NCBI GenBank assembly: GCA_012295275.1
Contig: CM022670.1
Coordinates: forward strand, 20,522,001 to 20,586,000
Reading direction: 5' to 3'
Origin: Chrysomallon squamiferum
Taxonomy: Eukaryota > Animalia > Mollusca
Length of the DNA: 64,000 bases
In this document: positions 4,385 to 64,000 of the stretch, one piece after another
How positions within the stretch are numbered: the first letter of the stretch is position 1
Layout of the letters: the number at the start of each line of letters is the position of its first letter
Translations under genes and position numbers: made by a program
The notes under the pieces: model-generated
Database searches by the model: none
Told to the model about the DNA's origin: nothing
What the model saw: only the letters and a program-made list of their open reading frames with translations

Positions 4385-4460
4385 ATGGCGGCACGATGGT
4401 TTTATTATCTATTTCTTGCGTCGATCTTCGTGAAAATAGCAGAAATGTATGCCGCACATG
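4385..4460 (+). CDS. Gene A signal-peptide exon
   Basis: acaATGGcg start context, hydrophobic core WFYYLFLASIFV, 76 nt ending in phase 1 at G|GCAAGT. Confidence 0.75.
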
Positions 4461-7400
4461 GCAAGTATTTCTATTTATTTATTTATTTATGTACTTTTTA
4501 TTTATTTATTTGACGTTCGAAATAATTGATTAATAACTATCACTTAGTCTTATCTACAATAAACTGTGTAACTTCTGTAATGATAATAGAAAACATATTG
4601 TATGGTGGTATTTTGGCTTTTATGTGTGTTCGTATATATGTATGCATGAATATGTGTATATACGTATATATGTATGTACGTATGTATGCATGTATCTATT
4701 TTCGTGCGTACCTACATGTATTTTGCAAGTATGTATATGTATGTATAATTGTATATTTTTATCTATATATGTGTGTACATATGCGTCTGTAAGTATGCCT
4801 ATATGTACGTACGTATGTACTTATCTTGGGTATGTCTGTTAATCCGTTTGCTTCAGTTAATATTACTATTGTTGTTATTTATGTTGGTGTCCTTGTTCAT
4901 ATTTTTGTTTGGTGTTTGACCGTGGTGCTTTTACCACGTCACTGTTTTATTTCCTAAGCCTGTGGTTCTGGTTTATATGGTCGTCAATGTAACAAACGTT
5001 GTAGTGATCGTCATTGTGCTGATGTTTCTGCACCGTGTCCAGCATGGGATGGATACTGCTCAGGAAAATGTGAAGATGGCTGGAGAGGAGGAGACTGCAC
5101 AACGGGTAATTATTTCAAAGAGAAATTAAGCGAATACCGTTACTACATCAATAAACAGACGGAAATAAAAAAGAACATTTTTACATTAAAGTGATTTAAA
5201 TTTTAAATGAATGAATGTGATTTAATCGATCTCAAAAGCATAATTATGTTATAATAATAATACTTTATTATTACTTTGTTAGAAGATATTTATAATTTGC
5301 TCTTCACTTTTGTACCGAATTTTAAGTAAACAACATTTATCTAGCTATTAATTTGAAATATCTTATTACCAGCATGTTCTGAATTTGGAAGATACGGTGC
5401 TAAGTGTGGATTTGTCTGTAGCAGTCGTCACTGTGCTTCGTCTAGAGCTTCTTGTGATACAGTCACAGGAGACTGTGGACCTGAAGGCTGCGAACCAGGC
5501 TGGAAAGGAATCGACTGTAAACAAAGTAATAACACAATTATTACTATGTTAGTGCCCACAAACAAAAATCAATTTTCTGTAATAATCAGTAATTAGTACA
5601 TTATTTCTCGGTTGCAGAAATGAGTGCAAATGTTAATTAGAATCTTAAATGTTGTTAGTTCAGAAATATTTTGTGAAGATTTAATAAGAAAAAAGGTATT
5701 GCTGGGTGAAACATATTGCTGGGTGAAACAAAATGTAAAGATTTAACTGCGAGAGTATCACAGCTGTTTTCTATTTCAGCATATTTGGAAATATTTATTG
5801 GCAAAGCTTTTGATTTATCTTTTATTGGTACCTTTTTTCCTGCAAAACATTTTTTGTGGCTTATTTACTTTCTTTTCTATCTGTTTCTGGTTGTCTGTTT
5901 GTTTATCTATTGACGTATTTATTTATTGTTCGTTATACATTCATGATGAAAACCAGTTTGAACTCTGAATTTATATGAAATTGAAATCTATTATTCACTG
6001 TGTTTCAGCATGTGAGAGGAGAGTAAAATATGGACCAAACTGTAAAAAGTCATGTTCACATCGTCACTGTGCTACAACTTCAAACTATTGTCCTTTCACA
6101 AGTGGAAAGTGTCATGATGGATGTCAGCCTGGATGGAAAGGAGTCGACTGTTTGCAAGGTTTACAAAATTTGAATTTTTCGCTATTATTATTGTTGCATT
6201 TGATTTCTGTCTTCTTTAATAATTCACATATTGTAAAATGTATTACTGTGATATATATATATATATATATATATGTATCGGGCATAAAGTAATCTTACTT
6301 GTTGTAGTCATTTGAGACTTGAAGCTATTATACTCTCATAAGAGTATATGACTTTTTAATTATACCCATTATACTTTTACTTTTATTAATTATTTATTTG
6401 TTGCTTTTGTTTGTTTGTTTCTTTTTTATTCGTTTATGACAATATTTATTATCACACTGACATTACAAAATACGAATAAATTGCACATAAAAGTAACAAA
6501 TTTGACAGATAAAACGGTTACATATGCAAATGTATTTTGATAAATGATATATAATTATATTCTTAGGAATAGTCAAATAAAATAGTTTATAGGCGTAACT
6601 CATAACATTTATCCTTTAAAACTCAAATAATTTAATGATTAATTATAATAAATCTTTACGTCCGCTGGTATTATAAATATAACTAAATACGGAGATCATA
6701 CACGTATGGTTCATGTACAACTAACTGTATATTTATATATACAGAATAACATGTTGTTTTGTAATAAAATAGTGGAACTGTTCTGAAACTTATTTTTTTT
6801 TCATTTGTAACCTGTATCGTCTGTAACATTTTGGACGGATGTTTGCGAGAAACTTTAACTGTGTTTATGTCCTTGAAAATGTCTAAACACTAAAACATAT
6901 ATCTATATCTACATGGATAAACTATATCAGTTTGTAAAATCATTAGAAGAAAAATACACGAAAAGAACTGAACATCACTAAATCGAAAAAAAAGAAGAAA
7001 AAAAAAACAATGATTCGTTTACAATTAACACTGTGTTTAATAAGATTCATTCAACCTAAAATTTCGTACGGTTCAATAATTATATCTTCAAAATAATATG
7101 ATATCGACTGTTTTCAAGGTTTCAAAGGTTCGCATTTCTCTCTATTATTAACATTATTATTGCTGTTGCTATTTCTTTCTGTTCTTTTGTGGTTAAAAGT
7201 GAATTTTTACCGCATCTTTGATTCATTTCTGAAGCCTGTGATGAGGGATTTTATGGTAGACACTGTAACAAAAGTTGTGATGATCGTCATTGTGCTGTTT
7301 CTTCTCCGTGTCCAGAAAGTAATGGATTCTGCTCAGGAATATGCGAAGATGGCTGGAAAGGTCGTGACTGTTCAACAGGTATTTATTTTAATATAATTGT

Positions 7401-62700: not shown

Positions 62701-64000
62701 TGGAATGTGTACATTATTACAAATATACACACGCATATATACATACGTAGATACATACATAGATATATACACACTCAGAGACACACATACACACACACAC
62801 ACACACACACACACACAGACACATGCTCATTAAAAAAAATATTGATTTATATATTCTGGGATGATCTTCCAGCATGTGTAAAAAACTACAGTTACGGACC
62901 AAATTGTAACAGACTGTGTCAGAATCGTCACTGTTCTTTAACAAATGCACCCTGTGATGTACAGTATGGAATCTGTGGTACAGATGGATGTAAGGCAGGA
63001 TGGAAAGGAACTGACTGCACACAAGGTTATTTTTGATATTTATATATCATACTAATGTTGGTTTTTGTATAACATATATTTTCCAATATAAACAATAACG
63101 AACGAAATAACTGTTACTGTTAACCTACATATCCGTATTTGGTAGGGCGACGCGTTTGTGGAATTGCCAGGGTTTCAATCAAAACAGTAAGTTTATAATT
63201 ATATATAACTAGTGTAAAATTTAATATATAACATTACAAATAATTATATTAACAATAATCAGTTCTTTAGTTTCATTAAATGACTATTTTCCAGTTTGTA
63301 GAGAAAACTACAGTTACGGACCCAATTGTATCAAATATTGCCAGAACCGTCATTGTGCTGCAGCAAATCCACCTTGTGATGTAATACATGGAGGTTGTGG
63401 TTATCAAGGCTGTAAACATGGATGGAAAGGAACTGACTGCAGCGAAGGTAATTCATTAACTTAAAAATATACTGAAGTGATAATAATTCCATGTATCTAA
63501 GCAAACCTATCATTGTCTTTGCAAGATCAATTTCCTGGTAATATTACAGTTGTAACAGAAATATAAAAGTTTCATTTGTATGAAACTGGACATCGTTAAT
63601 GAAAAAAAACCCCACTAACCAACATTATTAGCTAAATAATTTTGATCAGGTTAACTAAAGTTGCTTTTTCTTTACCTTTTAATTTATTCTAAAAGTAACA
63701 GTTCTTTTCAAAGTTATGGTAAAGAAACCACTATGTTGCATGAATGGCATTTAGTTTAAAGTTTCTTAGTTTAGAATAGAGAAAATATCATACCAATATA
63801 AAAATGAAAAACAGCAGTTTATCCAAGAAATTTAAGTAAAGGATGATTATAACTGTATGTTACAGAATGTGACAAAGAAATAAACTATGGACGTGGTTGT
63901 TTGAAGCACTGTTCTAAACGTCATTGTCTGAACACATCAACGTGTGACACAAAGACTGGGGAATGTATTGGAGGTTGTCAACCAGGATGGTTAGAACCTG
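53756..64000 (+). CDS. Gene D (runs off the window): EGF-repeat receptor paralog with no lectin exons visible
   Basis: Leader 53756-53834 (MAGCYTSLQFLVGCFILQSGQITAEY). EGF exons 59179-59325, 60493-60639, 62179-62322, 62873-63025, 63295-63447 and 63866->64000, all open and phase 1-1. The last four parallel gene C EGF exons 2-5. Confidence 0.75.
56258..56336 (+). pseudogene. Proximal leader exon of gene D with the start codon lost (ATG to ATA)
   Basis: cgctATAactgggttctgc versus cgctATGactgggttctgc at 36892. The donor is intact. Confidence 0.8.
59909..60018 (+). pseudogene. Truncated EGF exon, acceptor intact, ending in TAG
   Basis: CLSDTADGTDCNKKCTDRHCLNSQQSRPTCPYIDV*. The second half and the donor are missing. 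Confidence 0.75.
61225..61325 (+). pseudogene. Second copy of the truncated EGF exon
   Basis: CLSDTADGTDCNKKCTDRHCLNSQQSSPTCPI*. Confidence 0.75.

What the first reader, a model, noticed from the sequence alone, without database searches (positions are those of the whole stretch)
4385..64000. Tandem cluster of modular lectin/EGF-stalk receptors with tyrosine-signalling tails: candidate diversified invertebrate immune or recognition receptor system
Seen: at least four genes and two relics in 60 kb share one plan (leader, optional F-type lectin, n x 8-Cys EGF exons, TM, 4-Tyr tail) but differ in lectin presence (B and C yes; A and D no) and stalk length (13, 3, 10, >=6 exons). Established: F-type lectins bind glycans in invertebrate innate immunity, and MEGF10/CED-1/Draper/SCARF EGF receptors drive phagocytosis through YxxL motifs. 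Inference: this is a birth-and-death receptor cluster comparable in logic to KIR/Siglec or Hydractinia Alr loci, possibly for microbe or symbiont recognition. Lectin-plus-EGF proteins are often auto-annotated as MEGF10-like in molluscs, so the novelty lies in the cluster organisation and signalling tail, not the domains.
Basis: partly seen in the sequence, partly recalled or inferred. Interest (0 to 1): 0.85.

Follow-up and report, generated by a model that had tools for sequence, protein, structure and literature searches.

The report
Snail receptor cluster with ITAM-like tails
This stretch of DNA, likely from a snail, holds a row of intact and decaying genes for cell-surface receptors of a mollusc family already linked to parasite resistance, and their short inner tails carry a paired-tyrosine motif that likely switches immune signalling on and likely counterbalances phosphatase-tailed relatives.

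Summary
The cluster is real, with corrections. Gene C is an open 803-aa model (leader, F-type-fold lectin, 10 EGF exons, TM, tail), and one of its introns is spliced out in RNA-like contigs. A has 11 intact EGF exons of 13 and B has 2 of 3; the rest carry stops. D's own leader lacks ATG. There are at least five gene relics, not two. The lectins fail the fucose-binding motif, and the genes are not MEGF10/Draper orthologues (no EMI seen, no NPxY). The layout is already published: Biomphalaria LG5R/SudRes1 clusters hold the same receptors with optional lectin and optional phosphatase (PMC13712769, PMC12297450). What my searches did not find in print is the tail. A, B and C end in YxxL-x10-YxxI, and this ITAM-like pattern occurs in 33 of 74 short tails of relatives (about 0.5 expected) but in 0 of 60 phosphatase-bearing ones. 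On a lectin tree, ITAM-tailed and phosphatase-tailed members interleave, sometimes as same-species sisters. Best reading: activating recognition receptors diversifying by exon-level birth-and-death, possibly paired with phosphatase-tailed siblings. Function is untested. New member of a known kind; interest 0.5.

The parts
4385..13419 (+). Gene A: leader 4385-4460 (GC donor), 13 EGF exons, TM exon 12678-12777, tail exon 13152-13419; no lectin; 686 aa if the two stop-bearing exons are skipped
   Evidence: splicing not tested
7566..7706 (+). A EGF exon 5 with in-frame stop; 93% identical to intact exon 9399-9539
11040..11186 (+). A EGF exon 11 with in-frame stop
13152..13419 (+). A tail exon: five Tyr, ending in YxxL-x10-YxxI
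16001..17080 (+). Relic of an A-like gene end: frameshifted last EGF exon, tail fragment, 3' flank
20990..22700 (+). Relic of a B/C-like gene: frameshifted EGF exon and a tail exon with a stop and a frameshift
24348..32488 (+). Gene B: leader 24348-24426, lectin 26785-26991 + 27491-27712, EGF 28600-28743, 29713-29859 (stop), 30897-31043, TM 31863-31965, tail 32179-32488; 403 aa if the stop exon is skipped
   Evidence: splicing not tested
26604..26711 (+). Probable relic of a tyrosine-phosphatase exon inside B intron 1 (39% to Gigantopelta P0020 residues 956-991)
   Evidence: (E 0.004); weak and found after the fact
34545..36072 (+). Leader-only relic: intact leader exon 34545-34623 followed by intron-1-like and then 3'-flank-like DNA; could serve C as an alternative first exon
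36892..50465 (+). Gene C: leader 36892-36970, lectin 40863-41069 + 41592-41813, ten intact EGF exons 42919-49582, TM 49723-49858, tail 50156-50465; open 803-aa frame
   Evidence: joint 48020-48391 and exact exon and 3' matches in RNA-like runs
50156..50465 (+). C tail exon: four Tyr, ending in YxxL-x10-YxxI; 45% identical to the tail of Gigantopelta P0098
53756..53834 (+). Second leader-only relic, with ATG; the only ATG leader available to D
56258..64000 (+). Gene D, cut by the window end: own leader 56258-56336 begins ATA; no lectin; EGF exons 59179, 60493 (B-like), 62179, 62873, 63295, 63866 (C-like)
334..815 (+). 3'-flank-like DNA 80% identical to A's 3' flank; likely the end of another A-like gene upstream of the window
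9124..9231 (-). Inverted partial EGF exon inside an intron of A
20108..20188 (-). Inverted leader-like exon with a stop

Best explanation
The window holds tandem copies of a mollusc type I receptor gene (leader, optional lectin-fold domain, a variable number of EGF exons, one membrane span, short tyrosine tail) that likely act as activating recognition receptors, with a Syk/Shark-type kinase predicted to dock on the YxxL-x10-YxxI tail. Shown by sequence: the exon plan, symmetric phase-1 exons, mosaic copies, dead exons and relics, and conservation of the tail motif across molluscs. Inferred: unequal crossing-over in phase-1 introns adds, deletes and swaps lectin and EGF exons without shifting the frame, and stop-bearing exons in A and B are skipped. 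Inferred from Draper/MEGF10 and oyster CgIgR: ligand clusters the receptor, a Src-family kinase phosphorylates the tail, a tandem-SH2 kinase binds, and engulfment or another haemocyte response follows. Least certain: phosphatase-tailed paralogues with the same outer part act as the off-switch, and the ligand is a microbial or parasite glycan other than canonical fucose.
For: C is an open 803-aa frame. Runs X8 and X9 have no depth in 6 of 30 bins, all intronic, and show the predicted joint 48020-48391 (GT..AG), which X7 and X2 lack; exact matches lie at 48923-49068, 50436-50675 and 50940-51218. dN/dS is 0.31 for the B/C tail (P 0.005) and 0.29 for C/D EGF exons (P 2e-7). D joins a C-like upstream block (98.7% over 2.2 kb) to B-like and then C-like EGF exons. 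The strict ITAM pattern is in 15 of 32 and 18 of 42 short tails of relatives (shuffle means 0.17 and 0.33), in 9 of 38 cluster representatives (0.28), and in 0 of 60 juxtamembrane stretches of phosphatase members. On the 81-row lectin tree the ITAM label needs 13 changes against 14.8 for shuffled labels. In H. asinina, ITAM/phosphatase pairs are 54% and 62% identical, while ITAM/ITAM and phosphatase/phosphatase pairs are 36% and 39%. The same family sits under schistosome-resistance peaks in two Biomphalaria species, and an oyster ITAM receptor recruits Syk.
Against: No ligand, kinase binding, tissue or phenotype was tested. X8 and X9 are recorded as 'DNA?' with no library record, so their RNA nature is my inference, and they share a sample with the best DNA holder. 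No read evidence covers A, B, D or any leader or lectin joint. The last tyrosine motif also fits the ITIM consensus, and a spacer of 10 is longer than the classic 6-8 (recalled). The lectin lacks the His of the fucose triad, and C also lacks the Asp. Lectin dN/dS (0.77) is not above 1 and not significantly above the tail's (P 0.18). No intact phosphatase gene is in the window, and the 12-row clade holding B, C and the Gigantopelta lectins has no phosphatase member. 41 of 74 short tails lack the strict motif. RefSeq models may be fused or cut short.
Confidence: 0.6

Rival explanations
1. The tails are inhibitory or switch-type: the terminal S-P-Y-x-x-I motif recruits an SHP-type phosphatase, and the receptors dampen responses to self or to symbionts.
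For: The terminal motif of A, B and C fits [ILVS]xYxx[ILV], and A also has a TxYxxV motif (consensus recalled). Draper has an ITIM-bearing isoform that binds Corkscrew (PMC8092387).
Against: The paired YxxL/I spacing is kept within 7-12 residues, mostly 9, near the C-terminus in 33 relatives. The family already has members with their own phosphatase domain (60 of 120).
Confidence: 0.15
2. The receptors are adhesion or tissue-recognition proteins with a non-immune role (development, epithelium, gametes), and the degenerate lectin binds protein rather than glycan.
For: The fucose motif is met in only 15 of 81 family lectins and not in B or C. The same outer part also rides on kinases and 7TM receptors. 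F-type lectins have fertilisation roles (PMC5712786).
Against: Rapid turnover, relics and exon swapping in the window; association of the family with parasite resistance in two snails.
Confidence: 0.15
3. The cluster is mostly neutral duplication debris: only C works, and A, B and D are pseudogenes or partly assembly duplicates.
For: Stops in A (2 exons) and B (1), loss of ATG in D's leader, at least five relics, a 98.7% identical block shared by C and D, and a scaffold gap. No read evidence for A, B or D.
Against: All other exons of A and B are open with intact splice ends, and A keeps the ITAM spacing at 31% tail identity to C. C and D differ by 6-29% in matching exons with dN/dS 0.29, so they are not a simple haplotype duplicate.
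Confidence: 0.1

Closest known systems
[quoted passage not shown]
   Same: Clustered single-pass receptors with signal peptide, Tie2-like EGF region, optional galactose-binding/fucolectin domain, many gene fragments. A and D match 1A; B and C match 1B. The best PDB sequence hit of my EGF profile is also Tie2.
   Different: The paper calls the short cytosolic domain 'without identifiable domain signatures'; 'ITAM' occurs 0 times in its main text. I did not test whether the Biomphalaria tails carry the motif, and did not read its supplements.
Biomphalaria sudanica SudRes1 MEGF/GBD receptor phosphatases (PMC12297450; passages)
   Same: Tandem paralogous MEGF + galactose-binding receptors, copy-number differences and EGF domain loss between haplotypes.
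   Different: Those genes end in tandem phosphatase domains; the window's end in short tyrosine tails. 'ITAM' occurs 0 times in the main text.
Gigantopelta aegis RefSeq 'MEGF10-like' proteins, e.g. XP_041357563.1 (P0098)
   Same: Tail 45% identical to C with all four tyrosines; EGF repeats match C7, C9, C10 in order. Fucolectin and MEGF families are listed as expanded in that snail (PMC7895826; passages).
   Different: Automatic names only. P0098's model has no lectin and one more EGF repeat before the TM.
MEGF10 / Draper / CED-1 engulfment receptors (PMC8092387; passages)
   Same: EGF-like stalk, single TM, tail with ITAM or YxxL; the likely signalling logic.
   Different: No NPxY, no EMI domain seen, lectin in its place, multi-copy and fast-evolving where MEGF10 is described as invariant.
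Oyster CgIgR (PMC6994640; passages)
   Same: Molluscan receptor whose ITAM tail recruits Syk and promotes phagocytosis.
   Different: Ig ectodomain, not lectin/EGF.
Vertebrate paired receptors (KIR, Ly49, Siglec) and Hydractinia Alr (recalled, no call)
   Same: Clustered genes, birth-and-death, similar outer parts on opposing inner parts.
   Different: Unrelated folds. Here the activating motif is in the receptor's own tail and the proposed brake is an intrinsic phosphatase. Allelic polymorphism and allorecognition were not tested.

Membership tests
Molluscan scavenger class F-like receptors (LG5R 1A/1B) | Signal peptide | tested here: inconclusive
   Hydrophobic 25-26 aa leader exons seen; no signal-peptide predictor was available.
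Molluscan scavenger class F-like receptors (LG5R 1A/1B) | Tie2-like / MEGF-type EGF region | tested here: met
   The EGF profile hits Tie2 2gy5 (E 2.5e-4) and 245 proteins; the best 120 listed are nearly all molluscan, many named MEGF10-like.
Molluscan scavenger class F-like receptors (LG5R 1A/1B) | Single TM and small cytosolic domain | tested here: met
   Best 21-residue hydropathy 2.9-3.1, tails 90-103 aa in A, B, C; no Pfam hit for the three tails. Not seen for D.
Molluscan scavenger class F-like receptors (LG5R 1A/1B) | Optional galactose-binding/fucolectin domain | tested here: met
   PF22633 above cutoff in B and C; none found in A or D.
F-type lectin (fucolectin) | F-type jellyroll fold | tested here: met
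   Tested on a stand-in: Gigantopelta P0236 (55% to C's lectin), model pLDDT 89.5, top Foldseek hits 3cqo, 2j22, 1k12.
F-type lectin (fucolectin) | Cation motif h2DGx | tested here: inconclusive
   A-V-D-G is present in B and C, but x is Ile, not a small hydrophilic residue.
F-type lectin (fucolectin) | Fucose motif HX24RXDX4[RK] | tested here: not met
   Gln replaces His in B and C, and C has Lys for Asp; a relaxed form of the motif is met in 15 of 81 rows.
MEGF10/Draper/CED-1 | N-terminal EMI domain | tested here: inconclusive
   No EMI hit in 11 relatives scanned and no extra Cys-rich exon between leader and first module; the window's introns were not scanned with an EMI profile.
MEGF10/Draper/CED-1 | NPxY in the tail | tested here: not met
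   0 of 3 tails.
MEGF10/Draper/CED-1 | ITAM or YxxL in the tail | tested here: met
   YxxL-x10-YxxI in 3 of 3 tails; shuffle frequency 0.3-1.4% each; broad consensus recalled.
Receptor tyrosine phosphatase subgroup (LG5R 1C / SudRes1) | Cytosolic tandem phosphatase domains | tested here: not met
   Only a 36-codon intronic relic-like hit; D's 3' end is outside the window.
Paired activating/inhibitory receptors | Similar outer parts on opposing tails, linked in the genome | tested here: inconclusive
   Met in relatives; three pairs have accessions 9-16 numbers apart on contigs of equal length. Not shown for the window's organism.
Paired activating/inhibitory receptors | Shared ligand and opposite signalling | not testable with these tools
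   Needs binding and signalling assays.

The most novel reading that the evidence does not exclude
Molluscs have a phylum-wide paired-receptor system: one lectin/EGF outer part is repeatedly swapped between an ITAM-tailed activating receptor and a phosphatase-tailed inhibitory one, in clusters that shuffle symmetric exons to vary ligand head and stalk length. This window is a cluster of the activating arm, and the parasite-resistance loci of Biomphalaria belong to the same system.
Probability: 0.4. Interest if true: 0.75.

Novelty: new member of a known kind. Interest (0 to 1): 0.5.

Why it matters
The family lies under schistosome-resistance peaks in two vector snails, where the short-tailed members have no proposed signalling route. 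An ITAM-like tail, set against phosphatase-tailed siblings, gives a testable on/off mechanism and would be a paired-receptor system outside vertebrates built from other folds. The cluster as such, and lectin-plus-EGF receptors, are not new.

Tried and rejected
No whole genome was at hand, so there is no genome-wide count and no search for a phosphatase-tailed sibling in this organism. No RNA holder listed. The tail alignment found no relative among 1277 candidates; tails were reached only through the EGF profile. Summed contig depth is much higher over some EGF exons in X7 and X2, but the tool says it is no copy number, so I do not use it. dN/dS of stop-bearing exons against their intact twins (0.22, 0.42) is too thin to date their loss. 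Positive selection on the lectin was not shown (0.77, P 0.40). Rejected: MEGF10/Draper orthology, canonical fucose binding, C and D as simple haplotype duplicates. No complex prediction was sent, as no Syk sequence or phosphotyrosine was available. Look-ups of earlier findings by words, place and sequence gave nothing. Literature searches that returned no title or abstract opening on ITAM tails or ITAM/phosphatase pairing in this family: (listings only; open-access library, most subscription papers missing).
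Full report
What is there. The window is AT-rich (26-34% GC), microsatellite-rich animal DNA. An 8-cysteine EGF-like pattern occurs 29 times, all on the + strand, against 0 in 30 shuffles. From splice ends I built four models. A: leader, 13 EGF exons, TM, tail, no lectin. B: leader, two lectin exons, 3 EGF exons, TM, tail. 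C: the same with 10 EGF exons, an open frame of 803 aa. D: at least 6 EGF exons, no lectin, cut by the window end. All introns are phase 1 except the last, so any EGF exon, or the lectin pair, can be added, lost or skipped in frame.

Corrections. Two of A's EGF exons and one of B's carry in-frame stops; skipping them gives open frames of 686 and 403 aa. D's positional leader begins ATA. The leaders at 34545 and 53756 are followed by intron-like and then 3'-flank-like DNA, so they are remains of genes whose bodies were deleted, though they could serve as first exons. Further relics lie at 334-815, 16001-17080 and 20990-22700. A 200-N gap separates A from B-D.

Evolution. The exon tree pairs A12 with C9 and A13 with C10 (starred), B1 with C1, B2/B3 with D1/D2, and C2, C4, C5 with D3, D5, D6. 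D therefore joins a C-like upstream block (2194 of 2224 aligned bases identical) to B-like and then C-like exons, with the lectin lost at the junction. dN/dS is 0.31 for the B/C tail and 0.29 for C/D EGF exons, both below 1 by Fisher test. The lectin gives 0.77, which is neither above 1 nor significantly above the tail.

Expression. Nine runs hold the 3' half of C, none on record as RNA. I laid 4 of the 9. X8 and X9 are small assemblies (43-45 Mb) with no depth in 6 of 30 bins, all intronic. They show the joint 48020-48391 with GT..AG ends (2 contigs and 1 contig), absent from X7 and X2, and carry exact matches to C at 48923-49068, 50436-50675 and 50940-51218. I read them as RNA; that is inference, other intronic bins do have depth, and the two runs are one sample. 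Loose ends continue into EGF exons not in my exon list, so more copies exist elsewhere. Splicing of A, B, D and of the leader and lectin exons remains untested.

Relatives. A profile of 21 EGF exons found 245 proteins; the best 120 are mostly Gigantopelta, Haliotis and oysters. By their Pfam lists, 60 of 120 carry a tyrosine phosphatase domain, 3 a kinase, 2 a 7TM domain and 55 none of these. A second search gave 2175 hits, 150 listed. Gigantopelta P0098 has a tail 45% identical to C and EGF repeats in C's order, and the B and C lectins group with Gigantopelta lectins at 100/98. The source is therefore likely a gastropod near Gigantopelta.

The tail. A, B and C end in YxxL-x10-YxxI, with an upstream YxN and no NPxY. 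Of 246 relatives, 74 passed a filter for a TM followed by a 40-160 aa tail; the other 172 were dropped. The strict pattern Y..[LI].{6,12}Y..[LI] (consensus recalled) is in 15 of 32 and 18 of 42, against shuffle means of 0.17 and 0.33. After clustering, 11 of 38 tail clusters contain it and 9 of 38 representatives do, against 0.28; it is in 0 of 60 juxtamembrane stretches of phosphatase members. The last motif also fits the ITIM consensus, so the sign of the signal is not settled.

Pairing. On a tree of 81 lectin domains (79 of the 120 named proteins plus B and C; ITAM label by the looser pattern with V allowed), the ITAM label needs 13 changes, 11 forced by starred branches, against 14.8 for shuffles; the phosphatase label is clustered (18 against 27.1), partly through isoforms. 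Same-species sisters with opposite tails include P0036/P0010 (99/84) and P0035/P0003 (98/68, not starred). In H. asinina, opposite-tail pairs are 54% and 62% identical, same-tail pairs 36% and 39%. Three such pairs have accessions 9, 12 and 16 apart, which suggests neighbours. Against this: the clade of B, C and Gigantopelta lectins has no phosphatase member among 12 rows, and the window has no intact phosphatase gene. B's first intron holds a 36-codon stretch like a phosphatase domain (E 0.004; best of 1473 window ORFs, 70 against 54; 0 of 2000 shuffles; profile score 8.7 bits against at most 6.0 in 7 controls), which I count as a probable relic only.

The lectin. A stand-in from Gigantopelta folds as an F-type lectin. 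The fucose motif of PMC5712786 (passages) is broken in B and C and met, in relaxed form, in 15 of 81 rows. The ligand is open.

What is known. PMC13712769 (passages and section 20) describes a Biomphalaria cluster under a resistance peak with subgroups lacking the lectin, carrying it, or carrying it with phosphatase domains, and finds no signature in the short tails. PMC12297450 (passages) describes the same family at SudRes1. PMC7895826 (passages) lists fucolectin and MEGF expansions in Gigantopelta. PMC6994640 and PMC8092387 (passages) give the ITAM-Syk precedent in oyster and in Draper/MEGF10. 'ITAM' occurs 0 times in the main text of the two Biomphalaria papers; I did not read their supplements, which may bear on this. 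Eight topic searches listed nothing on ITAM tails in this family. Two unchecked AI notes from other genomes propose similar readings; they are not independent support.

Verdict. Observation confirmed with corrections; interpretation partly supported. The cluster is a new member of a known molluscan receptor family. The part worth following is the ITAM-like tail and its possible pairing with phosphatase-tailed siblings (probability 0.4). Interest 0.5.

Noticed in passing
window 42919-44215: X8 record 17 (477 nt) runs EGF3 to EGF1 to EGF2 with exon-exact ends at the 3-to-1 joint and 2-6 differences per exon: a back-spliced circle, or a paralogue with a repeated three-exon block. Its length leaves 6 nt unexplained.
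   Followed up: partly
window 26604-26711: Phosphatase-domain-like stretch in B intron 1, absent from the matching intron of C.
   Followed up: yes
window 4461-4462 and 43679-43680: Two GC donors (A leader, C EGF2). One search lists T at 43680 in two X7 contigs, which would make a GT donor.
   Followed up: no
window 34755-36993 and 54136-56359: A 2.2 kb block is 98% identical between the C and D upstream regions while its flanks are 76-88%: recent gene conversion or duplication.
   Followed up: partly
window 59070-61711: 1.3 kb tandem duplication (95.6%), each unit with one intact EGF exon and one truncated EGF exon that keeps its acceptor.
   Followed up: no
window 2379-2711, minus strand: 111-aa open stretch resembling a Tc1/mariner transposase N-terminus (resemblance recalled, not searched).
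   Followed up: no
window 40863-41813 against 26785-27712: B and C lectins differ at 22 of 145 residues, five of them consecutive (126-130); not mapped on a structure.
   Followed up: no
proteins P0031, P0039, P0089, P0091, P0115: The same EGF stalk also rides on 7TM receptors and tyrosine kinases in molluscs.
   Followed up: no
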